The position numbers were made by a program, and so were the translations under genes. 64,000 nt of DNA from the NCBI GenBank assembly GCA_000004985.1, contig GG738887.1; one strand, written 5' to 3'. Source of the DNA: Naegleria gruberi (lineage: Eukaryota). The notes beneath the pieces are model-generated. The model saw nothing but the letters and a program-made list of their open reading frames with translations, did no database searches and was not told where the DNA came from. Of the stretch, positions 29,280 to 62,971 are shown one piece after another. Positions within the stretch are counted from its first letter, which is position 1, and the number at the start of each line of letters is the position of its first letter.

Positions 29280-29885
29280 GTGTTGTATGAAACATGTAAT
29301 ATTTCCAAACTTCGGCCAATCCAAGTAGATATGAGAAGTGATGATGTTTTTGGTTTTAGTACTTTAAAGACATTCCAGTAAGATTGAAATACTAAAGCGA
29401 TGATTCCTTAATGTAATAAATACAAAAGTAATTCGAATCACGATGAAGATTGTTGATCGAATCTATCCAAATGTTCTTGGCACGCCTAATATTTATCAAA
29501 ATGTCTACTTTGATAAACATCATAGTTTGATTGCTTTTAAAACAAATCATGCACATTACTAAATTATTACTGCACTTGTTAATAGGAAATTAGAGCCTTC
29601 CGTCGTTCATATGAACTATTTTTGTTACATTTGATTATGAATAATACTAATATTGCTCATGTCTCTACACTTGCCTCCTTCATTGTGATATTTTTTAAAT
29701 AATTAATATTAATAAATATTGAAACTTTAAAATTTTTTAACAAAAGATAAATTGTGGAAAGTAACGATTTTGATCAATCCCAACAAATTTGTTGCTGTCT
29801 CCGAAGCAAAAGAACAAATCATCACACAATATTGAAAGAACAGTAAATTTCAAGAGCGCCAAAATACAAAAGATTTTTAAAAAAT

Positions 29886-33989: not shown

Positions 33990-35368
33990 TTATGGTTGAA
34001 CATTCCAATCATTCTTTTCATCCCATTCTCTTACTCGAATTCTCTTTTCTTTTGTCAAGTTGGCTCCTTTCAATAGAACTGTATTAACCAAATTAGATTC
34101 CTGACTAAAGTCACGAGGTCCATAATTGCAGGTAATTGTGTATTGTGGCAATAAACCCATTCTAAGATAACATTCAGCCACAAATTCAGAACAGAATACA
34201 TTAGCATCATTGGATTGAGTATTTCTCTTAATGACACATTTCAATAATTCAGATTTTGAAGTTTCGTATTTCTTATCAATGGAAATCTTCAAATAATCAA
34301 CAAGTGTTGGGAATTGATCCACAATATTCTCATCCTTTGGTCTATTATCCATTGAAGGAATGTTCAATCTTCTCAAACAACACAAATCAGTTGGATCTCT
34401 TTCCAAATAATCCATAAACCACTTTCTCAATTCTACTAATTGAATTCCACCACCTTCCTTATTGTCCACAGTATCAGTTTCAGATTCTGCAACAAAAACA
34501 GTTGAAAATCTTGATGAAGCATCAACTTGAACCTTATACAATTCCAATAATTCTTTCGGTGGATTTCTAATAATAATCGACAAGTGAGACCAAGTTGATG
34601 AAAATCCCAATTGAATAGCTTTTGAGAAAGTTCCCTTTCCAGAATGCAACAAGACATCACCAGTTCTCAATTCATCATAAATATCCTCCAAATACTCTAC
34701 ACCAAACAAGTTATCCAATCGTTGAGATTCCTTTTCTGAAATATTTCCACTCAAAATTGATTTTAAACTTCTTCCTCTACTGGCGAAACCTCTTCCCTTC
34801 TCATTCTTGTATTCATTTAAAAAGTTGGTCAAGTCAATTTGTGGAATATTCTCAGAGAGTGAATCAACGAAACCATCATTAATTTGAAAGTTGAGAGGTT
34901 CAATTCGAATATGTAAACTTCCTTTTGGAACTCCTTGCAAGTTTAGCCACATTTCGAATGGTTTCTTCTCTTCCAATTTGAGAGTAGAAAGTGAAACTGC
35001 TATGAATCCCAATGAATCATCTCCTGTGAATTTGTCCTTATCATATAATTGACAAATTAGGACATATTGTTCTGGATTGTGATCGAGTGGAATTTCAAAA
35101 GTTTCATTCCAGACAGGATTTAATGAGTTGGAAATTACATGAGTCTTGAACTGTTCCTTCTTTTTACCTCCGAGCCAGGCAACACAGTATGGATCAGAAA
35201 CGTCACCTTTTTAGTGATTGTTAATTTTGACACCTGTCAAAACTTACCATTTTTACCAGAATCAGTGTTGATCAAATTTTTAGCTTCCAAGATGGTGAGT
35301 TTCATGTGGAAGGTTTTGAAAGAGCTGAAAGTCTTGTCAACTCCAAAGTGTTTTGGTGTGATTGGCAT
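33990..35368 (-). CDS. C2-domain protein with C-terminal LRAT/NlpC-P60-superfamily (His...Cys) domain, about 445 aa, 2 exons
   Basis: The ORF-track start (35012) is a TTG artefact; the frame continues upstream. Exon 1 is 35248-35368 (ATG at 35368 after an A8 run; MPITPKHFGVDKTFSSFKTFHMKLTILEAKNLINTDSGKN). Intron is 35207-35247 (GTAAGT...CACTAAAAAG, 41 bp, phase 1). Exon 2 is 33990-35206. The spliced N-terminus gives a textbook C2 domain (GDVSDPYCVAWLGGKKKEQFKTHVISNSLNPVWNETFEIPLDHNPEQYVLICQLYDKDKFTGDDSLG). The C-terminal region has TWSHLSIII (His) and NVFCSEFVAECY (Cys), resembling the H-box and NCEHF box of LRAT/PPPDE-like papain-fold domains. Confidence 0.72.
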
Positions 35369-35791: not shown

Positions 35792-38042
35792 ATGTCAAAA
35801 AAAATGTCATCAATTAAATTGATTACTGTCATTTGCTTTTTGTGCATGTTAAATGTTGTTTTTGCACAAATTCCAAACAACAAGGCTGTTATGGGAGGTA
35901 ACTTGGGAGGTATGTAGAATAAGCCAAATATTTAATTTACTTTCGAATAATAGGCTTAGGTAAGTTTCGTATTATTTTACATCGAGTTTCGAATATTTTC
36001 ACACAGCCGACTATTCTAATAATTTGGTTTTCATCGATGCCATGAGAACTGCTCGTTATGTAAGTGCTTTTATATATTTTTTTTAACATTCAAAGTGGGG
36101 TCAAGCAGATGCTCCATGGAACACTTTACCAGTTGACCAATACAATCAAGATTCGTATCCAGTTGGATATTCTGCTGGTACAGTTGTTTTCATTCAACCT
36201 GCAGGTACTGTCAATGGAACTTATTATTTTCAAGGTGATGGACAGTTGACAGTCGATTTGGTTGCTAGCTCAGATTGTGAATTGGTCAATTTCACATATT
36301 CAAATGGAAAGACAACTGGTTATATTGTAGTTGGTGATCAAGCTACTCAACTCATGTTAGGATTCACTCAACCAACAAACACATCTTTCCAAAACATTCG
36401 TCTAATTCGTCCAGGTTTCACCATTCAAGATGCTGACACTCTCATCTTTCTTCCAAGCTTTATTCAAGATATTAAGGATTTGAAATTGATTAGAATGATG
36501 GATTGGTGCTCTACGAATGCAAATCCAATTACAAAATGGAGTGAAAGAGCTAGATCAACAATTTCAACATTCTCAACAAGCAAAGGAATTTCATACGAAA
36601 CTATAATTGCTTTGGCAAATATGCATGATAAGGAAGTTTGGGTAAATATTCCAGCAATGGTCGATGAAGATTACATTTTACAAATGGCAAAGCTTTTTAA
36701 GGAAAAATTGAGTCCAAATCGAGTTTTTTATTTGGAATATTCGAATGAAATTTGGAATTCAGGTTTCGAACAAACAGATTGGAATTTTAATTATGCAGAA
36801 TATTTGGTAACTGTTGGGAATATGACTATTTTCAATTATGATCAGGTGAATAACAAGTATACTTGGGGATTTAGAAGAACTGGTTATGTGGCCTATCGTA
36901 TTTCTGAAATATTTGCATCTGTTTTTGGAGAAAGCAAACGAAACACTCAATTTAGAGTTGTTTTGGCTGGTCAAGGTGCCAATTCATATATTGTTAGTCA
37001 AGGTTTACAAATGATTGAGAAATTTGGAGCTCCTTCCAAATATCTCTATGCCATCGCCTCAGCTCCATATTTCCAAATTGACAATAATTATTCTGGAACC
37101 ATGTCCAAAGATGCTGTTCTAAATGAATTGGAATATCAAATGAATAGATCACCAGCTGTCTATGATTATGGTAATTACATTTGCATGGCCAAATTCTATG
37201 GCCTCAAACATATGGCTTACGAAGGTGGACCAGATACTTTCGGACCTTACAATATTCAATCTAAGAGATTGGCATCATTCGAACCAAGAATGAAACAGAT
37301 TACCATTGATTTTTTGAGAAATTGGTTCAGTTATGGATTTGATGCCTTCGTGTGGTATACTGTTAGCTATGGAGGTTATGATTCACAATATGGAACTTGG
37401 GGATGGGCTGAATATATTTCAGATTCGTATAAGCCAAAGAGAGAGGGAATTCTCTATATGGTCAATAATCCAAACGTTCCTTACAATACTACTGTATTTA
37501 AACTATTTGCAGGACCAGTCAATTCAATTTTAAGCACTCCTGCTGTCAAGCATCAATTGGCTGACTCTTCTTCAAGTGCTACTGTTCTTGCCTCAGCTCA
37601 ATTGGACTCTGTTTATTATTATCCAATGATTAATACTAGACGTGGTATTTATTCAGTCAGAATTGAAGCTGCCAATGTCTTGAATGGTGGAGGATATCTT
37701 GGAATTTATATGAATAATGTTAAATTAGGATCTGTTCTTTCGAATTCTGCTGTATATAATTTTACAATTCCAATTAATTCTGGAATTATTGAAAAGGGAC
37801 TCAATGTTGTTACAATGGTCATTGAAACAGACAGAGCTCTCAATATTAGAACTGTCAATGTCACTCTAATTCAAGAAGTTGCTGAGCCAGTTCCAACACC
37901 AACACCAATTCCAGCACTCATTTCCACAGTTAGCAATAATGATAATAGAACAATTACAATTTCCACCTCTTCAACTCTCACCATGAACGTAATGATTGCC
38001 TTATCTGCATTATTATTCATCACTTTATTCATCCAATTGTAA
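35792..38042 (+). CDS. Secreted glycoside-hydrolase-like protein (TIM-barrel clan GH-A-like, NE motif) with Ser/Thr/Pro linker and C-terminal hydrophobic (GPI-anchor-like) tail; 3 or 4 exons
   Basis: ATG at 35792 (a second ATG at 35804). The signal peptide is MSKKMSSIKLITVICFLCMLNVVFA. Exon 1 is 35792-35909 (phase 1). Intron is 35910-36006 (GTATGT...CACACAG); alternatively two introns (35910-35953 and 35960-36006) flank a 6-nt micro-exon GCTTAG. Exon 2 is 36007-36059. Intron is 36060-36095 (GTAAGT...CAAAG, 36 bp). Exon 3 is 36096-38042, in frame with the ORF-track ORF. LEYSNEIWN resembles the catalytic acid/base NE(P) motif of clan GH-A. The C-terminus is EPVPTPTPIPA...TISTSSTLT followed by MIALSALLFITLFIQL. 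Confidence 0.65.
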
Positions 38043-45094: not shown

Positions 45095-46093
45095 CTAATG
45101 AGTTTCTTCAATTTTAATAACTCTTGGCATTTCAATACCATCCTGTTGCACAGATTGTTGTTGAGTAGGACAATTGCAACTTCCTGGATTTGTTGGATTA
45201 GTCGGATTAGTTGGATTTGTATTCGAATTCATGTACACAACTTGCAAATCAGGAACATAATTCTTCACATAATTAATCCAATAAGTAGTATTTGTATAAA
45301 CACCAAAAGCTCCTTGTCTTCCACATCCTTGAGGTCCATACGAAACGAGGCCAATTAAACCCATCGTATAAGAGTTGCCACTTTGACGAATCCAGTGGAG
45401 AGGGCCACCACTATCTCCTTGACAACTATTGATTCTATTTCCTTCACCTACACATAATTGATATGGAGATTCCATTCCCAATCCTTGTTGATTACAGACA
45501 GATGACTGTTGAAGTGGCATGTAAGCTTTTTGAGCTTTTGAAGGTAAATCATTGGAAGAATCTGAAGTTCTACCCCATCCAGTGAGTGTTACGAGTGTTT
45601 TGAATGGGATTTGACCACCTTCAATGCCAATTCTTTGAACTCTGTTTTGGGAAGCAGTGCCGAGTGGTAAGTCACTTGTCAATTCGAGCATGGCAATGTC
45701 ATTTCTGATGTATTGAGAATTGTAGTTTGGATGGACGATCTTTCTAGCTACTTTGCTAATGACACACTTTGAGGAAGGATTGGAACAATCGATATCTTGA
45801 TTGGCGACACCTGCCAAAACTCTAACCTTTGACACATCCATTCCATCAACTGAAAGACAGTGAGCAGCAGTGAGAATCCATCTTGAAGCAATAACACTAC
45901 CTCCACAGAAGTGTTGATACTTGACTCCATCTCTGGAATATTGTAAAGAAACTAAATGAGGAAATTGATTGTCATAATCAATGTCAGTACCACCTGCCAC
46001 ACTGATTCCTCTCTTGTTTAGTTCGGTTTCCTTGGAAATGACGATACATGCTAGGAGAGCACAGAAAATGATTGAGAAAATTAGTTTGTTCAT
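45095..46093 (-). CDS. Secreted S1-family (chymotrypsin-fold) serine protease, 332 aa
   Basis: ATG at 46093. The signal peptide is MNKLIFSIIFCALLACIVIS. The catalytic triad motifs are TAAHC (His), NDIAMLEL (Asp) and GDSGGPL (Ser), with conserved disulfide Cys. The residue six before the catalytic Ser is Asn (NSCQGDSGGP), not the Asp of trypsin. The C-terminus has (TNP)4 repeats and a tail. Confidence 0.85.
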   Translation of the reverse strand: MNKLIFSIIFCALLACIVISKETELNKRGISVAGGTDIDYDNQFPHLVSLQYSRDGVKYQHFCGGSVIASRWILTAAHCLSVDGMDVSKVRVLAGVANQDIDCSNPSSKCVISKVARKIVHPNYNSQYIRNDIAMLELTSDLPLGTASQNRVQRIGIEGGQIPFKTLVTLTGWGRTSDSSNDLPSKAQKAYMPLQQSSVCNQQGLGMESPYQLCVGEGNRINSCQGDSGGPLHWIRQSGNSYTMGLIGLVSYGPQGCGRQGAFGVYTNTTYWINYVKNYVPDLQVVYMNSNTNPTNPTNPTNPGSCNCPTQQQSVQQDGIEMPRVIKIEETH

Positions 46094-47515: not shown

Positions 47516-48241
47516 ATGAATCAAAGTAAGATTAGTAAGCAACATAAAATGAAATGCAATAAGGGAACATTTCACATTATTAATCTCAATCAGTGGTCAA
47601 TCACTGAAGACAGAGCTATGAAAGATTCCATTATTAAGGTCCACACTAATTCCACAATGTTTGGTAAGCATTATCAGAAGAGGGTTAAGGGCTTGACTGC
47701 TTGGGCACTTCCATATGCACATCTTAAGGATGTGTCATTTCCAAACAAGTTGGATGCACTTGATGTGAAAGATGTTGATTCGTTCCAACAACAGTTGTTG
47801 AAATACACCATTGAGAGGATTGAAAGAAAATTGGTTTTCAGAATTCAAGATGGAATCTCCAAAGTAGTTGATGGAAGACAGCATAATTTTGTTGGTGACA
47901 TGTCGTTTACCCAATTCCAATTGTTTTTGAAGTATTTGGTTTCGAATTGTATGGGTGATTATTCAACTGAAGGTGATTATGTTAAAGATCATGGTGACAT
48001 TACTTCATTTCTCATTCATAGCGTCGAATTCAAAACCATTCCTGGAAGAACAATGCCTCCACTTTCCACTTCTGATTGGAGTTTTCTTAAAGGGATAGAT
48101 AAGCAAACGGGAGAATGTAAGCGAGGATTTGTGAGCCAGTTGAAGTTTGTATATTCCGAATATACAGGTCTAGTTCGAGCTGATATGATATACTGGACTC
48201 AAAGATACTGTGATAAATCAAATTCATGGATTTTTTGCTAA
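47516..48241 (+). CDS. Hypothetical protein, 241 aa
   Basis: ATG at 47516 after an A-rich leader; stop TAA at 48239-48241. Its 3' end overlaps the convergent minus-strand gene by 18 nt. No recognised domain. Confidence 0.45.
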   Translation: MNQSKISKQHKMKCNKGTFHIINLNQWSITEDRAMKDSIIKVHTNSTMFGKHYQKRVKGLTAWALPYAHLKDVSFPNKLDALDVKDVDSFQQQLLKYTIERIERKLVFRIQDGISKVVDGRQHNFVGDMSFTQFQLFLKYLVSNCMGDYSTEGDYVKDHGDITSFLIHSVEFKTIPGRTMPPLSTSDWSFLKGIDKQTGECKRGFVSQLKFVYSEYTGLVRADMIYWTQRYCDKSNSWIFC

Positions 48242-50767
48242 TAAACTTTCAGATTGTTGCAATTCTTCATCAAAGATTGATTTTGATTCTTGAAAATTAT
48301 GTCTAGCCTTCATAACTTGTTTAAGATTAATCCACAACTTTGGATTTTTGAATAAAAACCCCTCAGTAATATGTTGTACAATAAGATCCCATCTCGAATC
48401 AGAGCCCAACCCTCCATTCCTTCCCCTTACTAAATTATCCGTTGCATGATACTTTCCTAATCCTTCATTAATAAAATTCATTGCATTCTTGAGAGAATCA
48501 ATTTGTCGCCAAACATCCATCAAATGATATTTCATTTGATGAAGATAATGAGGACTTTTTTCAAAAACTTCCACATAAAAAGAGCAAAATATTGATACAC
48601 CTCTTTGAATTTGGATTCCCTTTGATGGATTTTTCAATACTTGTTTCACTTGTTCATCATTATAATGCAGAAAGCCTTGAACTTCTTGAAAGTTTCCCCA
48701 GAGTTTGAATATGTTACCATCCTTTGTAAATGGGTTGAGTTCATTGCCAATACCTAGCCTTTCATGAATTAATTGAATTATCTCTCTATCATTAACATTT
48801 TTACCATTAATATCAAAAAGTGGATCCTCTTGTTCATCATTGTCCTCATTTAGAAAATCATTTTCTAAGAACTCATCATCTTGAGATGAACAATGATGTT
48901 GAGAATCTATATTCATATCATTTTCATTACTTGAACAATTTTCATCATCTTGCATGACATTTTCATTATTCGAGAAAGTGGTGTTATTTTCACCACTTTG
49001 CAAATTATTGAAGAAGGAGTTGAATGGTGATTCATTACTTGGTGTATAGGTAACATTATTAGGTGTTTGATTTAGAGAATCAATAGTATTATTCACGAAT
49101 GTTAGAACTCTCTCCCTGTTAATTGTGTTGGCTGATTGTTCAAATAATATCTCATCAAATTTGTCTTTTAAAGCCTCCAGGAAATATGGATAAACTTGTG
49201 TAATAGGTTGCACATATGAGGCATCAATAAAGCTAAAAGTTTTTTTACTCTTAGTGGAATCACCAGTATTGTTATTACCATTCTCTTTTGATGTTGATAG
49301 TTTCAAATAAATTGTTTGTCCACAATGCTTTTTGACTAATTTGGGTAATATTTCAACCAAAAATTCCAAAAGTCTATCATCATTAAGGCAGGTATTGTTT
49401 AACATATGTTCTAGTGTTCTCTCATCACAATGTAACAGATCAAAAATATGTTGATAATATCTCAACTTGAAATGGTTATATAATTCAATATCATAATTAG
49501 GGAAAAATGGTGTCAAACTTATTTTGTCAATAAGTGATACCTTATTAAGCTTCGTAGTACAATTACATCTCCAACATATGGGTAATTGATCGTAAAATGT
49601 TCTGTCATTTCCTAATAAATATGCATATCTGGTGGATATGTTATGTTGTTCACATAATTCTTGTTCTGCAAGAGATAATATATTAGATTCACTTGTAGTA
49701 GTGGTATTGTTAATGGTATCAATTAATTTACTTCTCATCTTTCTAGGAATCATGTTGATGATGTATTTTGTTTTCAATTTAGTATCAAGTGAAGTATCAT
49801 TAATAATGGAATTCATGATAATGAGTGTGCTCACTAAATTAGAACTTTGATTTTTTGATTTAAAGGATGGATCAAGTATTTCCTTCATTGCTAATAAATC
49901 AGAAGAGCAATAATTAGCAGGATTATTGTGCATAATATGTTGAATTTCAGGAATAAATTTTGCCAACACCTCCTTATCTTGATCATCTTGGGATTTAAAT
50001 AATTCCTTTAATTTAATAGGAGAAAGTAGCATCACTAGGATATCCCTTTTCAAGGAACATCCGTTTCTAGATAGTGTGATGATTCCTTTAGAATTTTCCA
50101 CACGTCGATCATCCCACCATAATTTGAAGAAATCTTTGTTGTATAAATCTTGTCCAGGTTCAACACATATTTGAAGAAGTTTTAAAGCAAGACAAGGAGA
50201 AATTGCTGTAATGTTTGTTGAACAAAATGGTGTTATTTTCAAGGAATATTTGATGAATGGAATTATTGTAGCATGATATTGATTGAACTTGTAGGTTGAT
50301 GGTAATTTTTCTGCAATGGATTTTGTATTATTTATTTTGTCTTTGAATCGACCATATCCATTCACTGACAAACTTGATTCCCTCCAAGCTCTAACAACTT
50401 CTGCTGCAACATCATTCTCTTCCGACACTGGTTGTTCTAACCCAACTTCTCCCATACAATACTCCAAAAATGTTTTTCCTATTCGTGATTGAGTTAAATA
50501 AACAAACATGATTTCAAACAAATCCATATTTAAAGTCTTCAAATAATTTCCAGCAAGAACAGTAAGAAACCTTTCGGATTGTAGTGGTGAATAGCTGTTG
50601 TGTTGATGAATACGATCCGTACATGTAAACTTCATATTGCTCTCAACATGTGCTGCTCGCGTCCACAGTTTTGAATGTAACTCTGGGGGAAAGTATTTAA
50701 TTGGAGGGTGTATGACAGGCCTTTCACCTCCCTTGATGGCTTCTACAGTTACAACCTCAAACAACAT
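48224..50767 (-). CDS. Large hypothetical protein, 847 aa, single exon
   Basis: Real ATG at 50767; stop TGA at 48224-48226. The continuous 2.5 kb ORF has an Asn/Asp/Glu-rich low-complexity region in the C-terminal third. No motif could be assigned by eye. Confidence 0.65.
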   Translation of the reverse strand: MLFEVVTVEAIKGGERPVIHPPIKYFPPELHSKLWTRAAHVESNMKFTCTDRIHQHNSYSPLQSERFLTVLAGNYLKTLNMDLFEIMFVYLTQSRIGKTFLEYCMGEVGLEQPVSEENDVAAEVVRAWRESSLSVNGYGRFKDKINNTKSIAEKLPSTYKFNQYHATIIPFIKYSLKITPFCSTNITAISPCLALKLLQICVEPGQDLYNKDFFKLWWDDRRVENSKGIITLSRNGCSLKRDILVMLLSPIKLKELFKSQDDQDKEVLAKFIPEIQHIMHNNPANYCSSDLLAMKEILDPSFKSKNQSSNLVSTLIIMNSIINDTSLDTKLKTKYIINMIPRKMRSKLIDTINNTTTTSESNILSLAEQELCEQHNISTRYAYLLGNDRTFYDQLPICWRCNCTTKLNKVSLIDKISLTPFFPNYDIELYNHFKLRYYQHIFDLLHCDERTLEHMLNNTCLNDDRLLEFLVEILPKLVKKHCGQTIYLKLSTSKENGNNNTGDSTKSKKTFSFIDASYVQPITQVYPYFLEALKDKFDEILFEQSANTINRERVLTFVNNTIDSLNQTPNNVTYTPSNESPFNSFFNNLQSGENNTTFSNNENVMQDDENCSSNENDMNIDSQHHCSSQDDEFLENDFLNEDNDEQEDPLFDINGKNVNDREIIQLIHERLGIGNELNPFTKDGNIFKLWGNFQEVQGFLHYNDEQVKQVLKNPSKGIQIQRGVSIFCSFYVEVFEKSPHYLHQMKYHLMDVWRQIDSLKNAMNFINEGLGKYHATDNLVRGRNGGLGSDSRWDLIVQHITEGFLFKNPKLWINLKQVMKARHNFQESKSIFDEELQQSESLLAKNP

Positions 50768-51256
50768 TAGTCTTAATTCGTATTTTTTTTTAGATGTTGT
50801 ATGATGAATTACTAAATCCCTAATACACCTTCCTTTTTGCTTAAAATTTTTATCTCAAAACGCGGCATTGAGGAAATTGATAGTGAAGGAGCTGGCAGAC
50901 AAGTAATGAGATTCGAAATGTTGTTGGAATGGTTGTTATTTGTTTGAGGTTTTGTGAGGTGTAATCAATTTCCTAATCATTGAAAAATACGAAACTAGAT
51001 GCAAGATTATTAATTACTGGTGATGCAATCTTTGAAGTCAAGTGATGTTTCGCCAATTTTACCTCCTTTATTCTTGAAATCTCCTCTCAAGACATTAAGA
51101 AAGTCATCTCGATGGCCACTTTCGTGTTTATCTCTAAAGTTTCGTACAAATTGAACACACTTTCAAAACACATCATGTCAAGTACAACAACTCAATTTTT
51201 ATAATTAAGACATCTCTTTGAATCTCTTATTGGAGAAACTACAACACCAAAAAAAA

Positions 51257-53735
51257 ATGAAAGTAAAACCAATTACCACATCAGACGAATCAGACGAAAT
51301 ACATTCGAATATCTCAGAGCAACTCTTACAAGCCACCAAAAAAAAAAGACCCTACGAAGGATTACTTCCTCTCAATCTATTCATTGTATCAACAATTTCC
51401 CTACTCATCCTCGCAGGTTGTCTATTCGTTTGGATTGCTTCCTTCTCAGTGACCAGCAATTCCATTCAAAATTTGAATGCCAAATTTATTGATGAATCAG
51501 GTCAGAAAATTAAGAATAGTTTACATGGATATATTGATCCAATTGCAAAACTTACAAAAATGATGGCTAGAGATTGGAATTCACAAGCTGTCAATTTAAC
51601 TCAATTAAGAGAATACTTGTTTCCTAAATTTGTGGAATTTGGTGCCAATGGGTGTGGATATTTCTTTAATGATACGTATTCGTATAGATATACCTATACG
51701 GTGAGTGGTACTGCAAGTAATCCAATAACTGGTAAGTTTGTTCTACTTTCGAATAGTTTCATACTAAACACTTTTGATAGTTTATGCACAACAACCGTAT
51801 GGATATGTTGGAACCATAAGAGATTTAGTCAATAACAATACTGGAGAAGTAACCAAGTACAATTATCAAGTCGATACAAAACCAATTATCATGACCACTC
51901 AAGATTTTTGGATCTATCTCAATAATTCATATGTCAATTATGGATTGGATGGAGTGGTTGGTGAACCGTACAGATCTATCGGTTCTACAATGGCCATTTA
52001 TTATGCAAAATGGATTTACGATCAACAATTGTACAAGGCAACCAAAACTAAACGTATTATTGGACTAGCTAAAGTCAACCTAGCTCTGGATGCAATTGTT
52101 ACCTTTTTATCTCAAATTGAATTATTAGGAAAAGGATATGTTCTAGTGACACTCAATTCTGGAACTGTCATTGGTGGTTCCATAAACACAACTGTCAATG
52201 ATGGGTTGACCAGTGTACATGTATTTGATTTGGAAACAAGAGGAGCAGGAAAACTAATCAAGAGGTTCTATGAGGTGAATGGCAACACTTTCAGTACATT
52301 TAAAAGTACCAATACGAAACTGAGTAGTGAAGGAGCATCATACATTGTCACTCCAATGAAATTCTCATATGAAAATTTGGAGTGGAATATTTTCTTTGTT
52401 TTATACGATTCTGATGTGAATGAACCAATGATTTTGAGTTCTTCCATAAGTATTGGTGTAACGGTGGTGATTGTCATTGTTGGTATTTGTTCTAGTTTGA
52501 TAACTGGTATGATTGTTTCAAAACCAATGAAATTTTTAGAGAAACAATTCGAAAGTATTAGAATTATGGATTTGGAAGCTGTAGTTCTATCAAACAAGTC
52601 AGTGTTCAAGGAAGTTGACTCAATATTTGGAAATTTGTACGACACTGTCATGTGGCTGAAAGAAATTAAGGCCTTTATCCCAGAATATGTCTTTGAACAA
52701 ATCAAACAAAACGAAACTATTAGTATCAAGAGTGAAACTGCACAAAATGCATCAGCAGCAACCAAAAAGAAACCAGAAAAGGAAGCTGATAACTTTTCTC
52801 ATTCATCTTCCTCTCTTGCCAACAAGTCAAATTCTCCAACTGAGAGTTCAGGAAATAATTCCTCAGTTAAGAGCTCATTTAAAACAGCGCAGAATTTATT
52901 TAAAATGGGCTATAGTAAGAGGAATTGTGTAGTTGTCCATGTCAAATTGGAAGGATTGATTGGTGGAGGTCATGAATTCATTTCTACATTTTTCAAAGAT
53001 TTCATTTCAGCAATTGCACCTGTCATTAAGGTCAATCAGGCCACTCTGCAAGTAATGAACTGTGATGAATTCCAGCTATCAATGGCTTCCAACAAGATTG
53101 AGGCTAAAGTTCTGGATAAGGCCATTGATTGTGCATTAAAGATTATTAAGGCCTCTGGAAAGGATGTATGTCCAAGAATTGGAATCTGTTACGGACCTTG
53201 TCATATTGGAAATATTGGAACAAACACATCAAGATACTATTCAGTTGTTGGAAGAGTTCCAGAGACTGCTAAATTATATGCAGAATTGGCTGGAAAGTAC
53301 AATGTTAAAATAATTACTGACACAACTCAATTGCCACTAGATTCGTATATCAATAGACCATTGGATAGAGTAGAAGTGAAATCTGACATTGTAACCATTT
53401 ACCAAATCATTGACAAGAAGAATACTGAAAACGATGAGTGGCTCTATGAATTAGAAAATTCAAAGAAGAATAACAAGTACCAAGATTTTAATGAAATCTT
53501 TCAATTATTCCAACCTTCCTATTGGAATGATTTCAAACAGGATCCTTTCCCTGTCATTGATAAATGCAGAGGAATATTGGAGAAATTCAAGAAGGAAGAA
53601 TTCAATGAGCATAGTGATTTGTCTTGTGATGAATTGTTGGCTCTTTTCAGTAACTTGCCAAACAGTGTTCAGGTGAATGAATTGAGTACTCGACTTACAA
53701 GTTATTCGAAAAAACTCTATGTAGAACTGAAATAA
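51257..53735 (+). CDS. Receptor-type membrane protein with degenerate class III cyclase-homology domain (pseudo-cyclase); 2 exons
   Basis: The first ATG is at 51257 (A9 context; the ORF-track 51218 start is TTG). Exon 1 is 51257-51731. Intron is 51732-51780 (GTAAGT...TTTTGATAG, 49 bp, contains ATACTAAAC, phase 1). Exon 2 is 51781-53735. The topology is a short N-terminus, TM1 (LLPLNLFIVSTISLLILAGCLFVWIASF), an extracytoplasmic domain of about 320 aa, TM2 (ILSSSISIGVTVVIVIVGICSSLITGMIV), a linker, a Ser-rich region, then a cyclase-like domain. There, FADIVGFT is replaced by HVKLEGL (first metal Asp lost) and KTIGDAYM by VMNCDEFQL. RIGICYGPCHIGNIG is kept. VNTASRME is replaced by VPETAKLYAE (Asn and Arg lost). 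Confidence 0.72.
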
Positions 53736-54061
53736 ATAAACATACGGTTCATTGTATGATCAATTCTATCCTGAAAAAATCAAATACAAGAGATTATAAT
53801 TCAATCACAACAAATGTTAAATTTTATTAAAATAAATGCACTACCAAAGGAAATAAGCATCGTAACGCAAGTCCAACTAAAACCTCAGGGTGTGAATGCT
53901 GTAGTCTTATTAGTTGAGTATTCCATTATTTCGTGCTCAATTCTACTCCAAAGGGAATAAATAACTAATAAAACTACAGAAAGCACATCCTCTTAAGAAC
54001 TTCTTCTAGGATAGCAAAACAAATTCTCCTTTCCCTATCTCATTCAAGACAATGTCTGTTC

Positions 54062-55039
54062 TCAACAGACCAAGTCATTGAAACATGCAATTTCTTTCTT
54101 GTGATATTCAACAGATGTTGGTGTAATACTTTCATTCGAGTAACTAGTCAAATTGCCAACATCCTTCAGCTCTACTGTAGATGTTGCATAATTAAAAACA
54201 ATAAGGTTGTGAATGCTCTGCTCTGTCTTATTCTTTTGACAATAAACATTCAATTGTTCTGTGCAATTATCAATTTGAATCCACAATTCTAGTTCTCTAC
54301 CAATATTGAACTCTTCTCTGAGCACGGAAAGTACACACTTCTTTTTCTTTTTGATATCTTTCAAATTAATGTAATGAGACTCCTTATCATCAGAGAGTAT
54401 ACAATTAACACACACCGTTCCAACCAAACTAAACGTAGTATCAAACTTTGTTCCTCTTCCATCTGATGACTTGGTCAAAACATTGAATTTGAAAGTGAAA
54501 GACTTGGTGGTTGTCCCACTCACCTTTAGATACGTATTTCGTCCATTCAATCTCTTGAAACTGTTTCCATCTTGAGCAAGGGTGGTGGATGACCCAATGG
54601 AGGAAGTTCTGTTCGAGTCTACTACTGTCAACGTACCTCTGGAAGAAGGTGAGATAGGATCATCCATAAAGTCATTATTTGTTTCCAAACCAGAACTGGA
54701 ACTGGAAACAAACGCACCATATTGTTCTTCTTCTACTCTCAAAAGCTCTTCAGCACCCTGGGCTGTAAAATCAGCAGTAATATTATCCATCATGCCAGGT
54801 GGTAATTCATTGAGGAAAGTATTACAAATTCCACCTTTAAATATTTCTTGTTGGTAGGCAGAGAATGATGGTGAAATGTCTTCTTCTACTTCTTCCTCGA
54901 CAATGGAGCATCTCGGAAATAGTAGTGGTGGAGAATGAGTTGTTTCATTCTTGTTCGTGCAAAGTAAATTCGCGACACTTTCATCATCATCATGATGGAT
55001 AGTATTATTAGTACTACATTCACTTGTTGAATTATTCAT
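54062..55039 (-). CDS. Hypothetical protein, about 325 aa (Ser/Thr-rich, acidic N-terminal half)
   Basis: The ORF-track start at 55090 is TTG with an in-frame TAG just upstream; the first ATG is at 55039 (MNNSTSE). No domain recognised. Confidence 0.5.
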   Translation of the reverse strand: MNNSTSECSTNNTIHHDDDESVANLLCTNKNETTHSPPLLFPRCSIVEEEVEEDISPSFSAYQQEIFKGGICNTFLNELPPGMMDNITADFTAQGAEELLRVEEEQYGAFVSSSSSGLETNNDFMDDPISPSSRGTLTVVDSNRTSSIGSSTTLAQDGNSFKRLNGRNTYLKVSGTTTKSFTFKFNVLTKSSDGRGTKFDTTFSLVGTVCVNCILSDDKESHYINLKDIKKKKKCVLSVLREEFNIGRELELWIQIDNCTEQLNVYCQKNKTEQSIHNLIVFNYATSTVELKDVGNLTSYSNESITPTSVEYHKKEIACFNDLVC

Positions 55040-55998
55040 CTTGTTGTCTATTAAATGTAGTAACTGTAGGGAGAGTTGCTGATAATACAAAGGTAGAACA
55101 AAGGAAGCCAGAGTACCGAAAGAGCTCTATGGAGGAATGAACGGTGCAAAGTAAAGACTTTTTTTTTGATGAATTTTTCCGTGATTTACAACGAGGATTA
55201 TCAGCAGGTAATTTCCAGTGAAATATAGCCTGAGAGATTGCGTTCTTTTTCAGTGATTTCAAAAGGAATTGATATGATAATTTGTGGGGAGTTAGATAAT
55301 GTTGTTTGGAATATGAAGAATAATTATTGATGATTCTCGTGTATCATCTATTGAATGTAATAGTAAAGTTTCATATAAATAAAATTCAAAATAGTCAATG
55401 GTGAAAATCACAAGTAAAGACAATTATTGGATAGAGAACAGATATGGAAGATGCAACTTGTGATGTTTCTGAGGTGGTTGATTTCGTCATCACGAGAATA
55501 ACAAATCAAAAAAAATAACAACAAATCCTCTGTGAATGTGTGATGATTCTCGGAGTGGTTTTACATCATGAAAGCACCAAACTTTCACAGTATCATCCCA
55601 ACATTATCTAAATAGTAGTAATAGTAGTAATTTTTGTTGGTGGATTATCATCATGAAATTGGAATTTATTTTTCATTATTATGGAAAATCACAAGTTGGT
55701 GTTTAATAATACGATCATTCACCAACCATCACCAATGTTGTTTTCCATTGAATATAATAATAATATTTGTGAAAATTAATTTTTAGTTTCGGAAGAATTT
55801 GAATTTGTTTAATTGGGATACTTTTTACAACAAATTAACGACAGAGGACAACCAATTACCTAGAGGACAAAGTTTTAAATTGTTAAGGGTACAATTTATC
55901 AGTTTTTCAGCATGTAGAAATTCTAAATAATAATATGAATGATAATAATAATTGGATTTTGTGAGCAAATATTGTGTAATGACTCAATTTACTTATTA

Positions 55999-56686: not shown

Positions 56687-58243
56687 ATGCAAACACCGCT
56701 CACACACAAACTTTCACTAACCTCTTTCAACACGGAACGAAGAGAACTTCCCACTCTCGAAAATTCCAATCTCATCAATGAAAGTTCCTTTCAAATATTA
56801 TCAAATTTTATTGCAAATTGTCCTCCGCAAACTGAGGAGAAAATGGATGGATACGGAGAAGCTCTTCCGGGTGAAGGACATGATGCTCTCAATTATGGAT
56901 TGAATGGTTGCTTGATGAGAGTGAATGGAGCATTGAGAAATTATCAAATTTTGAATAATGTTCCACTGCAAACATTCTTTTCGTATTACATGTATGAAGA
57001 TGGAAAGGATTCGAATGATGAAATTTTGAGAAATGATAAAGAAATGATTGACTTGTTCAAGGGTGGAATTGTGGAATATGTGGATTGGTTTTGTTGCTCT
57101 ACCGAAACTTCACAAAGTTCAAGAAGTGAGATTAGAATAAGCAAGTTGAGTGGAGATTATTTTCATTTCGTACAATCAAATGCTTTTGGCATTGGAACTA
57201 GAACTTTTGAAACAGATCAGTATTTTGCCTTGCATTTGGTGGACTCAAAGGAAACATGTAGTACTATTCCACTAATTGAATTCAAGTCATTTTGTGGAAT
57301 ACAAGAAGGTTTCGTTCATCAAGCCAAAATTGAAGATATTAGAAAGTCATCAAAGATTCCTTCTGAATGGAGTATGGAAAAGTTTGTGAGATTTTTAATG
57401 CTATGCTCCAATAGTTTACATCACAACATTAAAGAATGGGAACAAGTCGATACATTTCAAACAATTTTGACTGGACGAAACGTTTCGATTATTACTGATC
57501 TACAAATTGAACAGGAAACGATCATGATTTATAGAGAGGAAGATGATTATTATGAACAATTTAGTGAGGAAGAAAGAAATCTAGTAGGATATAATTTGAA
57601 TCATGGAAATCTCTTTAAGGAACAACTCTCTGGTCAATCAGTAATCGAGAAAGTATTAGAAACTTTTAGAAAGAATGAAAATTCTAACGAGTTGACCTTC
57701 TTACTGAACCTTCAACAGACCATTCATAATCTCTGTGTTAAAGCCACATTCATTGAAAAGCCAGATAATTCTCCAGTATTACAAAGAATTTCAGGTCAAC
57801 TTTACAACTTTAAAAATTGTAATTCGTTTGTAATTGAAATTGGTGAATATGTCAATAATTACAGAGCTCATGCAGAGGCAATTTGTAATGTAAATGGTAA
57901 AGAGATTCCTCTCCAATTAGATAGTTCCACTGTGAATGGTTACACATTCGAAAGATTTAATTTACGAATCAAGAATTCTCAACAAGTTTTGATTGAAATT
58001 ATTCGAACTCCAGAAGTTTCGAATATTGAAATAATAGATCCACAATTTAAACAAGATTTATTGGGAGAATTGAGTCAAGATGTTACAGATATGGAATTTG
58101 CTGGTTTACTCTATCATTGCCTCAAGAAAACTAATCTTTACATTACATACAGTTCATCTTTTCATACAAGTGGAAACAAACATGGATATCACGATGTTTT
58201 TGAAGAGAATACAATATTTCAAAATCGAAAAATGTTCTGGTAA
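56687..58243 (+). CDS. Hypothetical protein, 518 aa, single exon
   Basis: ATG at 56687 after an A8 run with a TTTAAAAAATA TATA-like element about 25 bp upstream. Long ORF with normal composition. No assignable motif. Confidence 0.6.
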   Translation: MQTPLTHKLSLTSFNTERRELPTLENSNLINESSFQILSNFIANCPPQTEEKMDGYGEALPGEGHDALNYGLNGCLMRVNGALRNYQILNNVPLQTFFSYYMYEDGKDSNDEILRNDKEMIDLFKGGIVEYVDWFCCSTETSQSSRSEIRISKLSGDYFHFVQSNAFGIGTRTFETDQYFALHLVDSKETCSTIPLIEFKSFCGIQEGFVHQAKIEDIRKSSKIPSEWSMEKFVRFLMLCSNSLHHNIKEWEQVDTFQTILTGRNVSIITDLQIEQETIMIYREEDDYYEQFSEEERNLVGYNLNHGNLFKEQLSGQSVIEKVLETFRKNENSNELTFLLNLQQTIHNLCVKATFIEKPDNSPVLQRISGQLYNFKNCNSFVIEIGEYVNNYRAHAEAICNVNGKEIPLQLDSSTVNGYTFERFNLRIKNSQQVLIEIIRTPEVSNIEIIDPQFKQDLLGELSQDVTDMEFAGLLYHCLKKTNLYITYSSSFHTSGNKHGYHDVFEENTIFQNRKMFW

Positions 58244-61724: not shown

Positions 61725-62971
61725 NNNNNNNNNNNNNNNNNNNNNNNNNNNNNNNNNNNNNNNNNNNNNNNNNNNNNNNNNNNNNNNNNNNNNNNNNNNN
61801 NNNNNNNNNNNNNNNNNNNNNNNNNNNNNNNNNNNNNNNNNNNNNNNNNNNNNNNNNNNNNNNNNNNNNNNNNNNNNNNNNNNNNNNNNNNNNNNNNNNN
61901 NNNNNNNNNNNNNNNNNNNNNNNNNNNNNNNNNNNNNNNNNNNNNNNNNNNNNNNNNNNNNNNNNNNNNNNNNNNNNNNNNNNNNNNNNNNNNNNNNNNN
62001 NNNNNNNNNNNNNNNNNNNNNNNNNNNNNNNNNNNNNNNNNNNNNNNNNNNNNNNNNNNNNNNNNNNNNNNNNNNNNNNNNNNNNNNNNNNNNNNNNNNN
62101 NNNNNNNNNNNNNNNNNNNNNNNNNNNNNNNNNNNNNNNNNNNNNNNNNNNNNNNNNNNNNNNNNNNNNNNNNNNNNNNNNNNNNNNNNNNNNNNNNNNN
62201 NNNNNNNNNNNNNNNNNNNNNNNNNNNNNNNNNNNNNNNNNNNNNNNNNNNNNNNNNNNNNNNNNNNNNNNNNNNNNNNNNNNNNNNNNNNNNNNNNNNN
62301 NNNNNNNNNNNNNNNNNNNNNNNNNNNNNNNNNNNNNNNNNNNNNNNNNNNNNNNNNNNNNNNNNNNNNNNNNNNNNNNNNNNNNNNNNNNNNNNNNNNN
62401 NNNNNNNNNNNNNNNNNNNNNNNNNNNNNNNNNNNNNNNNNNNNNNNNNNNNNNNNNNNNNNNNNNNNNNNNNNNNNNNNNNNNNNNNNNNNNNNNNNNN
62501 NNNNNNNNNNNNNNNNNNNNNNNNNNNNNNNNNNNNNNNNNNNNNNNNNNNNNNNNNNNNNNNNNNNNNNNNNNNNNNNNNNNNNNNNNNNNNNNNNNNN
62601 NNNNNNNNNNNNNNNNNNNNNNNNNNNNNNNNNNNNNNNNNNNNNNNNNNNNNNNNNNNNNNNNNNNNNNNNNNNNNNNNNNNNNNNNNNNNNNNNNNNN
62701 NNNNNNNNNNNNNNNNNNNNNNNNNNNNNNNNNNNNNNNNNNNNNNNNNNNNNNNNNNNNNNNNNNNNNNNNNNNNNNNNNNNNNNNNNNNNNNNNNNNN
62801 NNNNNNNNNNNNNNNNNNNNNNNNNNNNNNNNNNNNNNNNNNNNNNNNNNNNNNNNNNNNNNNNNNNNNNNNNNNNNNNNNNNNNNNNNNNNNNNNNNNN
62901 NNNNNNNNNNNNNNNNNNNNNNNNNNNNNNNNNNNNNNNNNNNNNNNNNNNNNNNNNNNNNNNNNNNNNNN
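61725..62971. other. Assembly gap (run of N)
   Basis: n characters from 61725 to 62971. The ORFs of X residues in the ORF track are artefacts of this gap. Confidence 0.97.

What the first reader, a model, noticed from the sequence alone, without database searches (positions are those of the whole stretch)
51257..53735. Receptor-like TM-ectodomain-TM protein with a catalytically degenerate cyclase-homology domain (pseudo-cyclase)
The fold-defining stretches of a class III cyclase are recognisable (RIGICYGPCHIGNIG corresponds to RiGihsGpvvaGviG). The first metal Asp, the transition-state Asn and the Arg are all replaced (HVKLEGL, VPETAKLYAE), so neither half of an active site can be supplied. 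The architecture matches sensor cyclases (Dictyostelium ACG, trypanosomatid receptor ACs, bacterial CHASE/Cache cyclases): signal-anchor, roughly 320 aa ectodomain, second TM, then the intracellular cyclase fold. This suggests a ligand-binding regulator or scaffold rather than an enzyme.
Basis: partly seen in the sequence, partly recalled or inferred. Interest (0 to 1): 0.65.

Follow-up and report, generated by a model that had tools for sequence, protein, structure and literature searches.

The report
Receptor with a dead cyclase domain
This Naegleria-type gene encodes a membrane receptor built like a bacterial Cache-HAMP adenylate cyclase whose cyclase domain still folds but has lost the residues needed for catalysis, and it belongs to a large, so far undescribed family of such "dead-cyclase" receptors in Naegleria and its relatives.

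Summary
Window 51257-53735 (+) is an intact two-exon gene with a 49-nt intron at 51732-51780. It encodes 809 aa: TM1, a 314-aa ectodomain, TM2, HAMP, a cyclase-transducer-like helix, a 62-aa low-complexity linker, a class III cyclase-homology domain (CHD) and a 104-aa helical tail.

The CHD fold is real. Pfam Guanylate_cyc scores 24.6 bits against a cut-off of 21.9. The AlphaFold model has pLDDT 87.7, and Foldseek matches CyaB, Cya2 and RhGC at E about 1e-10. Four of the six catalytic positions are replaced: metal Asp1 to K547, substrate Lys to V583, Asn to E653, Arg to L657. D587 and S646 are kept. No frame or alternative splice restores the lost residues.

The ectodomain is a dCache fold, modelled on a 51%-identical paralogue. 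The juxtamembrane profile matches the Af1503 HAMP domain.

The degeneracy is family-wide. Of 144 CHD-bearing cluster representatives, 139 are degenerate; they come from N. gruberi, N. lovaniensis, N. fowleri and Willaertia, with distant diplonemid and kinetoplastid relatives. Degenerate members carry a 35-135-aa linker where canonical relatives have 13-16 aa. The CHD is still conserved (31% identity against 14% for the linker).

The best reading is a non-catalytic, ligand-sensing receptor or scaffold. Its output mechanism is inferred, not shown. The closest functional precedent is trypanosome RDK1.

The parts
51257..51731 (+). Exon 1 (residues 1-158 plus the first base of codon 159): short basic cytosolic N-terminus, TM1 and the start of the ectodomain.
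   Evidence: gene model. The start M-x-K-V-x-P is shared by homologues.
51732..51780 (+). Intron, 49 nt, GTAAGT...TAG.
   Evidence: The spliced junction aligns without a gap to P0001 and P0002.
51781..53735 (+). Exon 2 (residues 159-809 and the TAA stop).
51374..51445 (+). TM1 / signal anchor (about residues 40-63), preceded by KKKRPYEG (positive-inside).
   Evidence: Hydropathy: best 19-mer 42-60, score 2.52.
51446..52436 (+). Ectodomain, residues 64-377 (spans the intron): double-Cache (dCache) sensor fold with five N-glycosylation sequons.
   Evidence: AlphaFold model of the 51%-identical paralogue P0002 residues 1-461, pLDDT 86.2. Foldseek matches Mlp24, PctA, McpB, TlpC and mmHK1S-Z3 at E 1e-10 to 1e-7, target TM up to 0.79. 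Pfam dCache_1 is below threshold in 9 of 29 family members and undetected in this protein.
52437..52511 (+). TM2 (about residues 378-402).
   Evidence: Hydropathy: best 19-mer 381-399, score 2.65. It is a continuous helix in the paralogue model.
52512..52661 (+). HAMP domain (residues 403-452: PMKFLEKQFESIRIMDLEAV...FKEVDSIFGNLYDTVMWLK).
   Evidence: The segment profile A6 hits the Af1503 HAMP domain in PDB. The top 15 hits are all HAMP, E 1e-4 to 2e-2, gapless over about 50 residues. Mean family identity is 42%. Pfam HAMP is not detected in single sequences.
52662..52706 (+). Cyclase-transducer-like helix (residues 453-467, EIKAFIPEYVFEQIK). It is the most conserved segment of the family.
   Evidence: 51% mean pairwise identity and invariant P459. 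It aligns with YVPKEVVKRL / YVPAEVVRDM of the canonical relatives. The label 'CTE' rests on my own knowledge of class III cyclases.
52707..52892 (+). Low-complexity Ser/Asn/Lys-rich linker (residues 468-529), inserted between the transducer helix and the CHD.
   Evidence: 14% family identity. pLDDT is below 50 for the part that was modelled. Linker length is 35-135 aa in degenerate members against 13-16 aa in canonical relatives.
52893..53420 (+). Class III cyclase-homology domain, catalytically degenerate (residues 530-705).
   Evidence: Pfam PF00211 24.6 bits. Profile against PDB. AlphaFold model pLDDT 87.7. Foldseek matches CyaB, Cya2, RhGC, CyaC and Rv1625c.
52944..52946 (+). Codon K547, at the position of the first metal-binding Asp (F-x-D-I-x-G-F-T in canonical relatives).
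53052..53066 (+). V583 at the position of the substrate-binding Lys, through D587, the retained second metal Asp (VMNCD against K-Y-I-G-D).
53241..53276 (+). S646 at the class IIIb Thr position, E653 in place of the transition-state Asn, and L657 in place of the Arg (SVVGRVPETAKL against TALGDPVNASSR).
   Evidence: Gapless alignment to the canonical relatives. The same pairing appears in the phmmer alignment to CyaB 3r5g.
53421..53732 (+). C-terminal helical domain (residues 706-809). It begins with the near-invariant D-E-W-x-Y-E-L-E motif and is probably TPR-like.
   Evidence: Five helices, pLDDT about 90; the pTM of 0.84 for the two-domain model suggests they pack against the CHD. D710, E711, W712 and Y714 are at least 90% conserved. 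Distant relatives give faint TPR hits at the same place.

Best explanation
The gene encodes a type-II-oriented, presumably dimeric receptor derived from bacterial-type dCache-HAMP-class III adenylate cyclases. Its cyclase-homology domain is kept as a folded module but can no longer make cAMP or cGMP.

Shown:
- The domain order is TM1, dCache, TM2, HAMP, transducer-like helix, disordered linker, CHD, helical tail.
- The CHD fold is present.
- Four of the six catalytic residues are lost, taken from both halves of the site.
- The same degeneracy occurs across a large Naegleria/Willaertia family, and the CHD is still conserved there.

Inferred:
- An unknown extracellular ligand binds the dCache module. 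It is not sensed through the canonical amino-acid motif, because the R-x-W-Y motif is changed.
- The signal passes through TM2 and HAMP.
- The output is non-enzymatic. The CHD dimer plus the conserved DEWxYELE/TPR-like tail would act as a ligand-dependent docking or scaffolding surface for a cytosolic partner.
- The long flexible linker replaces the rigid transducer-to-catalytic-core coupling that active cyclases need.
For: - Gene model and architecture.
- Cyclase fold: Pfam above the gathering score; a family-only profile hits solved cyclases to E 6.7e-9; high-confidence model with Foldseek E 4e-11 and TM 0.72-0.77 to CyaB and RhGC.
- Catalytic positions: K547, V583, D587, S646, E653, L657, against D, K, D, T, N, R in canonical relatives.
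- Family-wide: 139 of 144 CHD-bearing representatives are degenerate. None of the 35 close members in the alignment has Asp1 or the Lys.
- Constraint: CHD identity is 31%, against 14% for the linker and 27% for the ectodomain; HAMP is 42% and the transducer helix 51%.
- dCache fold and HAMP.
- The linker insertion goes with degeneracy.
- On a rough NJ tree of the non-CHD part, the canonical relatives fall outside or at the base of the family.
- Precedent: T. brucei RDK1 has a bacterial-sensor-like domain, a TM segment and a cyclase-like fold (PMC8519429) and showed no adenylate cyclase activity (bioRxiv 10.64898/2026.05.05.722970).
Against: - There is no biochemical or expression data for any family member.
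- D587 and a Ser at the Thr position are retained, and the conserved G-N-x-G...R643 loop is shared with active relatives. Residual nucleotide binding is therefore not excluded.
- The dCache fold was modelled on a paralogue, not on this protein. Pfam detects neither dCache nor HAMP in this sequence.
- No partner for the C-terminal tail is known.
- The scaffold mechanism is pure inference.
- The single-loss scenario rests on an unbootstrapped NJ tree in which one degenerate member (P0047) pairs with the canonical P0073.
Confidence: 0.72

Rival explanations
1. Heterodimerising attenuator. The dead CHD pairs with the CHD of a catalytically competent Cache-HAMP cyclase paralogue (P0073-like). Because it can supply neither half-site, it silences both active sites. 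cAMP output would then depend on the ligand of the pseudo-receptor.
For: Class III cyclases are obligate dimers with sites formed across the interface (established knowledge). The beta4-beta5 'arm' motif G-N-x-G-[ST]...R is shared between the family and its canonical relatives. The protein lacks residues of both halves, so a heterodimer would be fully inactive.
Against: Degenerate paralogues outnumber canonical Cache-type relatives by about 30 to 1 among representatives. One published survey found a Cache domain in only a single Naegleria adenylate cyclase (PMC4822843). The 35-135-aa linker and the distinct conserved tail suggest an independent output. No interaction data exist.
Confidence: 0.15
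2. Non-catalytic nucleotide sensor. The degenerate pocket still binds ATP, GTP or a cyclic nucleotide and uses it as an allosteric input. This would resemble the degenerate second site of mammalian adenylate cyclases and of soluble guanylate cyclase, or degenerate GGDEF domains.
For: D587, S646 and the near-invariant R643 are retained. The position of Asp1 is most often Lys or Arg across the family (53 of 140).
Against: The phosphate-binding beta1-alpha1 loop (x-G-F-T) is not conserved in the family, and the purine-contacting Lys is always lost. The pairing of K/R at Asp1 with D/E at Asp2 is only weak (p = 0.04 in close members, 0.37 overall, uncorrected for phylogeny). It would fit an internal salt bridge as well as ligand binding.
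Confidence: 0.08
3. It is still an active cyclase that uses non-canonical catalytic residues or an unusual metal arrangement.
For: The fold is intact and one metal Asp remains.
Against: A metal ligand is replaced by Lys, and the substrate Lys and the transition-state Asn and Arg are all missing. Mutation of any one of these residues reduces activity by orders of magnitude in studied class III cyclases (established knowledge). The replacements are not conserved among paralogues, so there is no alternative catalytic constellation.
Confidence: 0.03
4. It is a decaying pseudogene or a gene-model artefact.
For: The closest N. gruberi model, P0001, lacks 49 residues of the CHD core.
Against: The 809-codon reading frame is intact, with one canonical intron. 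Structure confidence is high. The CHD is more than twice as conserved as the linker across 29 paralogues and orthologues from four species. There are no alternative-frame motifs.
Confidence: 0.02

Closest known systems
Bacterial dCache_1-HAMP-class IIIb adenylate cyclases (e.g. MCF6764150.1 of a Thiotrichales bacterium = P0146; P0125, P0111) and the canonical metagenomic relative P0073
   Same: The order of modules is the same: TM1, dCache, TM2, HAMP, transducer helix, CHD and a helical, TPR-like tail. The alignment is recognisable along the whole length, including the shared G-N-x-G-[ST]..R..Y-[ST]..G stretch.
   Different: Those proteins have all six catalytic residues, Pfam Guanylate_cyc scores of 72-88 bits, and a 13-16-aa connection from the transducer helix to the CHD. 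This protein has two of the six residues, 24.6 bits and a linker of about 70 aa.
Trypanosoma brucei RDK1 (repressor of differentiation kinase 1)
   Same: It is a Discoba membrane protein with a bacterial-sensor-like (TlpQ/HK-type, i.e. dCache-like) ectodomain, a TM segment and a cyclase-like fold (PMC8519429). Adenylate cyclase activity was not detected, and its depletion did not change cAMP (bioRxiv 10.64898/2026.05.05.722970).
   Different: RDK1 carries an active STE-like protein kinase after the cyclase-like region. This protein ends in a 104-aa helical tail, and none of the top 150 relatives has a kinase signature. Direct sequence homology with RDK1 was not tested because I did not hold its sequence.
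Pseudo-symmetric degenerate site of heterodimeric class III cyclases (mammalian tmAC C1/C2, soluble AC C1/C2, sGC alpha/beta)
   Same: These are CHDs that have lost part of the catalytic set yet remain folded and functional as dimer partners. The family profile scores best against the C2 domain of soluble adenylate cyclase, which also lacks the metal aspartates.
   Different: In those enzymes each degenerate domain still supplies one complete half-site, so one site per dimer is active. Here both halves are defective.
Canonical PAS-cyclase in the same window (23964-29324, minus strand)
   Same: It is also a class III CHD.
   Different: It has a different architecture (multi-TM, TPR_TmcB, PAS), scores 191.6 bits to PF00211 with the full catalytic set, and is only 15% identical to this CHD. 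It is not a tandem paralogue.

Membership tests
Class III nucleotidyl cyclase homology domain (Pfam PF00211 fold) | Sequence match above the curated threshold | tested here: met
   24.6 bits against a gathering score of 21.9, residues 582-701. The family-only profile hits more than 40 PDB cyclases, best E 6.7e-9.
Class III nucleotidyl cyclase homology domain (Pfam PF00211 fold) | Beta-alpha-beta-beta-alpha-beta cyclase fold | tested here: met
   AlphaFold model pLDDT 87.7. Foldseek matches 3r5g, 2w01, 5oyh and 1wc0 at E 4e-11 to 1e-8, target TM 0.65-0.77, rmsd about 3.3 A.
Catalytically active class III cyclase | First metal-binding Asp (beta1, F-x-D-I-x-G-F-T) | tested here: not met
   K547.
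Catalytically active class III cyclase | Second metal-binding Asp (G-D) | tested here: met
   D587 is retained.
Catalytically active class III cyclase | Substrate-binding Lys (K-x-x-G-D) | tested here: not met
   V583.
Catalytically active class III cyclase | Transition-state Asn and Arg (N-x-A-x-R) | tested here: not met
   E653 and L657. The alignment to canonical relatives and to CyaB is gapless here.
Catalytically active class III cyclase | Enzymatic activity | not testable with these tools
   Needs a biochemical assay.
dCache_1 extracellular sensor | Double PAS-like (Cache) fold with a long N-terminal helix between two TM segments | tested here: met
   Tested on the paralogue P0002 (51% identical over the full length): model pLDDT 86.2; Foldseek matches Mlp24, PctA, TlpC, McpB and HK ectodomains. 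This protein itself was not modelled, because the spliced sequence was not accepted by the tool.
dCache_1 extracellular sensor | Pfam PF02743 match | tested here: not met
   No hit at E <= 10 for this protein. Hits are below threshold in 9 of 29 family members. Canonical relatives reach 62-65 bits.
dCache_1AA amino-acid sensors | Conserved R-x-W-Y ligand-contact motif | tested here: not met
   Canonical relatives have R-[PAV]-W-Y. This family has [QK]-D-[YF]-[WY] at the aligned columns. This is alignment-based only.
HAMP domain | About 50-residue two-helix domain directly after TM2, with sequence similarity to solved HAMP domains | tested here: met
   Profile A6 against PDB: the top 15 hits are all Af1503 HAMP constructs, E 1e-4 to 2e-2. 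The helix-loop-helix is present in the paralogue model. The Pfam HAMP model does not detect single sequences.
RDK1-type sensor/cyclase-like/kinase proteins | C-terminal protein kinase domain | tested here: not met
   No Pkinase hit. There is no HRD/DFG signature in this protein's relatives.

The most novel reading that the evidence does not exclude
The Naegleria/Willaertia proteins, the degenerate diplonemid and kinetoplastid relatives and the sensor/cyclase-like cassette of trypanosome RDK1 would be one ancient Discoba-wide family. In it, a bacterial Cache-HAMP cyclase was converted once into a non-enzymatic receptor. The dead cyclase dimer and its TPR-like tail would then serve as a ligand-gated docking platform, recruiting a kinase or another effector in trans in Naegleria and fused in cis in RDK1. 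This would make it a eukaryotic receptor class whose output domain is a pseudo-cyclase.
Probability: 0.25. Interest if true: 0.7.

Novelty: new variant of a known kind. Interest (0 to 1): 0.5.

Why it matters
Naegleria is often cited for its very large repertoire of adenylate/guanylate cyclases; the pangenome paper PMC9928731 gives 'at least 81'. One survey found a Cache domain in only one Naegleria protein (PMC4822843).

The data here show dozens of additional Cache-HAMP-cyclase-like receptors per genome. Most fall below the Pfam thresholds for their domains, and all are catalytically dead. Counts of cyclase-domain proteins may therefore overestimate the capacity to make cAMP, and Pfam-based counts of Cache sensors underestimate them.

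A pseudo-enzyme family that is large, conserved and expanded, and whose dimeric cyclase fold is kept for something other than catalysis, offers a tractable system for asking what a dead cyclase domain does. It may also inform work on trypanosome RDK1 and on environmental sensing in the pathogen N. fowleri, which also carries members.

Tried and rejected
I used the exon-2 translation instead. The ectodomain therefore had to be modelled on paralogue P0002.
- The first MAFFT alignment of the CHD with the neighbouring cyclase misplaced beta1 and shifted the G-D hairpin by two residues. I replaced it with the alignment that includes closer canonical relatives and a profile alignment.
- The look-up of encoding contigs for P0001, meant to check synteny and the 49-residue gap in its CHD, found nothing on record.
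- A second homologous-protein search with the family alignment returned only the same ten proteins.
- The afdb50 fold library was unavailable.
- Pfam did not detect HAMP in any member. This was settled by the profile search against PDB.
- Literature searches for 'pseudocyclase' and similar terms, and for six N. gruberi locus tags, found nothing on this family.
- I considered that alternative splicing or another frame might restore the motifs, and rejected it.
- I considered a tandem-duplicate relation to the cyclase at 23964-29324 and rejected it (15% identity, different architecture).
- I considered a K/R-Asp salt bridge replacing the metal. The statistical support is only weak, and I had no access to model coordinates.
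Full report
**Gene model.** The region 51257-53735 (+) holds two overlapping ORFs. They join into one frame when a 49-nt intron is removed at 51732-51780 (GTAAGT...TAG). This is the only in-frame candidate with a consensus donor, and it gives an 809-aa protein. The junction and the N-terminus (M-x-K-V-x-P) align without gaps to the nearest homologues. The window has about 33% G+C. Positions 1-23941 and 61725-62971 are runs of N.

**Organism.** The best database hits are Naegleria gruberi proteins (57, 51 and 47% identity), followed by N. lovaniensis, N. fowleri and Willaertia magna. The source is therefore a Naegleria-like heterolobosean whose own proteome is not in the databases searched.

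**Architecture.** Hydropathy gives TM1 at about residues 40-63 and TM2 at about 378-402, with a 314-aa segment between them that carries five N-x-S/T sequons. A basic stretch precedes TM1, so the N-terminus and everything after TM2 should be cytosolic. This topology is an inference from the positive-inside rule.

After TM2 come the following segments:
- Residues 403-452, a 50-residue segment. Its family profile hits the Af1503 HAMP domain; the top 15 PDB hits are all HAMP, E 1e-4 to 2e-2, gapless.
- Residues 453-467, a short helix (EIKAFIPEYVFEQIK). It is the most conserved part of the family, at 51% mean identity. It aligns with the Y-V-P-x-E-V-V segment that directly precedes the catalytic domain in canonical relatives.
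- Residues 468-529, a Ser/Asn/Lys-rich linker with 14% family identity and low model confidence.
- Residues 530-705, the cyclase-homology domain (CHD).
- Residues 706-809, a helical tail that starts with a near-invariant D-E-W-x-Y-E-L-E motif.

**Is the C-terminal domain a cyclase fold?** Yes.
- Pfam Guanylate_cyc scores 24.6 bits against a gathering score of 21.9.
- phmmer finds CyaB and rhodopsin-guanylate cyclase domains in PDB.
- A profile built only from degenerate family members hits more than 40 solved class III cyclases. The best is the C2 domain of soluble adenylate cyclase, at E 6.7e-9.
- An AlphaFold model of residues 505-809 has mean pLDDT 87.7 and pTM 0.84.
- Foldseek then returns only class III cyclases at the top: CyaB at E 4e-11 with target TM 0.72, followed by Cya2, RhGC (TM 0.75-0.77), CyaC and Rv1625c.

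**Is it degenerate?** Yes. The exhaustive representative search also recovered a few canonical relatives: P0073, P0125, P0146, P0151 and P0111. These have the same overall architecture, namely dCache_1 and Guanylate_cyc at 72-88 bits. Their sequences align to this protein essentially without gaps around the catalytic motifs.

| Catalytic role | Canonical residue | This protein |
|---|---|---|
| Metal Asp 1 | D | K547 |
| Substrate Lys | K | V583 |
| Metal Asp 2 | D | D587 (kept) |
| Class IIIb Thr | T | S646 |
| Transition-state Asn | N | E653 |
| Transition-state Arg | R | L657 |

A profile alignment gives the same assignment. Residues from both halves of the interfacial site are missing. The domain therefore cannot complete a site as a homodimer or as a partner of an active subunit; this follows from the established mechanism of class III cyclases. 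No reading frame in 51000-54000 encodes the canonical motifs, and the CHD lies in one uninterrupted exon, so splicing cannot restore them.

**Family context.**
- The exon-2 protein finds 455 cluster representatives at E <= 1e-3 and 56 at E <= 1e-30.
- Of the 144 among the best 150 that contain the CHD, only four have the full catalytic set, and a fifth has Arg replaced by His. The other 139 are degenerate.
- In the 35 close members aligned, none has Asp1 or the Lys. A few keep the Asn, and one keeps the Arg.
- Named members come from N. gruberi (at least 11 loci), N. lovaniensis (at least 10), N. fowleri and Willaertia magna. More distant degenerate relatives occur in Diplonema papillatum, Rhynchopus euleeides and Apiculatamorpha spiralis, and in metagenomic contigs. 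Some of these have N-terminal ankyrin repeats, or a solute-binding-protein domain in place of Cache.
- The CHD is not drifting freely. Its mean pairwise identity (31%) exceeds that of the ectodomain (27%) and is twice that of the linker (14%).
- Degeneracy goes with a structural change. The distance from the conserved Pro of the transducer helix to the start of the CHD is 13-16 residues in the four canonical relatives and 35-135 (median about 63) in degenerate members.
- A rough neighbour-joining tree of the ectodomain, TM2 and HAMP region was built without using the CHD. It puts the bacterial canonical proteins outside and the canonical P0073 at the base of the eukaryotic family. This fits one early loss of catalysis followed by expansion. 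The tree has no support values, and one degenerate member pairs with P0073.

**Ectodomain.** The spliced protein could not be submitted, so I modelled residues 1-461 of the 51%-identical paralogue P0002. The model has pLDDT 86.2. It shows a long N-terminal helix, two alpha/beta modules, then TM2 continuing into a helix-loop-helix. Foldseek matches double-Cache ligand-binding domains: Mlp24 (target TM 0.79), PctA, TlpC, TlpQ, mmHK1S-Z3, and the dCache-TM-HAMP region of B. subtilis McpB (E 1e-10 to 1e-7).

Pfam dCache_1 is below threshold in 9 of 29 members and undetected in this protein. The R-x-W-Y motif of the canonical relatives reads [QK]-D-[YF]-[WY] in the family. The ligand is therefore unknown and is probably not sensed in the classical amino-acid mode.

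**How it most likely works.**

Shown: a receptor-like protein with a dCache sensor outside. Inside, it has HAMP, a transducer-like helix, a flexible linker, a folded but catalytically incompetent CHD, and a conserved helical tail.

Inferred:
- It forms dimers, as Cache/HAMP receptors and CHDs do.
- Ligand binding is relayed by TM2 and HAMP.
- The output is not a cyclic nucleotide. It is a change in the availability or arrangement of the CHD/tail module for a cytosolic partner.

The long disordered linker argues against the rigid helix-to-catalytic-core coupling that active cyclases use. The strong conservation of the HAMP and transducer segment argues that transmembrane signalling is still selected for.

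**Rival mechanisms.**
- Silencing heterodimer with an active paralogue. This is possible because the dimer-arm motif is shared. It is made less likely by the roughly 30:1 excess of degenerate over canonical relatives and by the family-specific linker and tail.
- Non-catalytic nucleotide binding. D587, S646 and R643 are kept, but the phosphate loop and the Lys are not.
- Residual catalysis. This is very unlikely.
- Pseudogene. This is excluded by the intact frame, the model confidence and the conservation.
- Lys or Arg at the Asp1 position is the commonest state (53 of 140). It associates only weakly with Asp or Glu at Asp2. A salt bridge filling the former metal site is a possibility, not a result.

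**Comparison with what is known.**
- The closest family by descent is the bacterial dCache-HAMP-class IIIb adenylate cyclases.
- Upadhyay et al. [quoted passage not shown] The family described here was evidently invisible to the profile models.
- The Naegleria pangenome paper counts at least 81 cyclases without commenting on catalytic competence (PMC9928731).
- The closest functional precedent is T. brucei RDK1. It has a bacterial-sensor-like ectodomain, a TM segment and a cyclase-like fold followed by a kinase (PMC8519429). A 2026 preprint reports no adenylate cyclase activity for it and no effect on cAMP. This protein has no kinase domain, and homology with RDK1 was not tested.
- My searches for 'pseudocyclase' and similar terms, and for N. 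gruberi locus tags of family members, found no description of this family. The searchable library is incomplete, so this is absence of evidence only.

**Surroundings.** The neighbouring genes are unrelated: a trypsin-like protease, an NHL-repeat protein, a C92 peptidase-like protein and several ORFs without Pfam hits. The cyclase at 23964-29324 (-) is a fully canonical multi-TM PAS cyclase. It scores 191.6 bits with the complete catalytic set and is only 15% identical in the CHD. It is not a partner by duplication. There is no evidence for or against a functional link.

**Verdict.** They are extended here to a dCache-HAMP receptor architecture, to loss of the substrate Lys as well, and to a large lineage-specific family of receptor pseudo-cyclases. 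I rate it a new variant of a known kind, of moderate interest. The identity is secure; the output mechanism is open.

Noticed in passing
window 1-23941 and 61725-62971: These are long runs of N, 25,188 of the 64,000 bases. Only about 38.8 kb of the window is real sequence.
   Followed up: yes
window 23964-29324 (-): A 1786-codon ORF encodes a canonical multi-TM cyclase with TPR_TmcB, PAS and a 191.6-bit Guanylate_cyc domain (FSDMVGFT, KTIGD, GDTINTASR). The listed ORF starts at a TTG, so the true ATG and any introns were not worked out.
   Followed up: partly
P0001 (N. gruberi, closest homologue, 755 aa): It lacks about 49 residues of the CHD core, from after ALKI to before YSEFASKY, where all other members have the RIG..GNxG..R..VG block. 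This may be a mis-predicted intron in the gene model or a real deletion. Its DNA could not be fetched.
   Followed up: partly
P0006 (N. gruberi NAEGRDRAFT_59796, 890 aa): RCC1 repeats at the N-terminus are fused to the C-terminal two-thirds of a family member that lacks TM1. This looks like a merged gene model.
   Followed up: no
P0050, P0074, P0087, P0124, P0126 (JGI/IMG metagenome contigs of 25-320 kb): These proteins of about 1150 aa carry N-terminal ankyrin repeats followed by dCache, TM and a degenerate CHD. IMG labels them 'ankyrin repeat protein/class 3 adenylate cyclase'. The organism is unknown.
   Followed up: partly
P0086, P0120 (ENA/metagenome, about 1100 aa): These relatives have a bacterial solute-binding-protein domain (SBP_bac_1) in place of Cache, ahead of a degenerate CHD.
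   Followed up: no
Family-wide, position of the first metal Asp (K547 here; window 52944-52946): Lys or Arg is the commonest replacement (53 of 140). In close members it tends to co-occur with Asp or Glu at the second metal position (20 of 25 against 14 of 28; p = 0.04, uncorrected for phylogeny). A salt bridge may be filling the former metal site.
   Followed up: partly
window 45095-46093 (-), 31054-32553 (-), 33990-35012 (-): These are, in order, a trypsin-family serine protease (143 bits), an NHL-repeat beta-propeller protein, and a weak, below-threshold match to the C92 permuted-papain amidase family. None is related to the finding.
   Followed up: no
window 48224-50767 (-), 54062-55090 (-), 56687-58243 (+), 36246-38042 (+): These are large ORFs (847, 342, 518 and 598 aa) flanking the gene, with no Pfam match at E <= 1e-3.
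   Followed up: no
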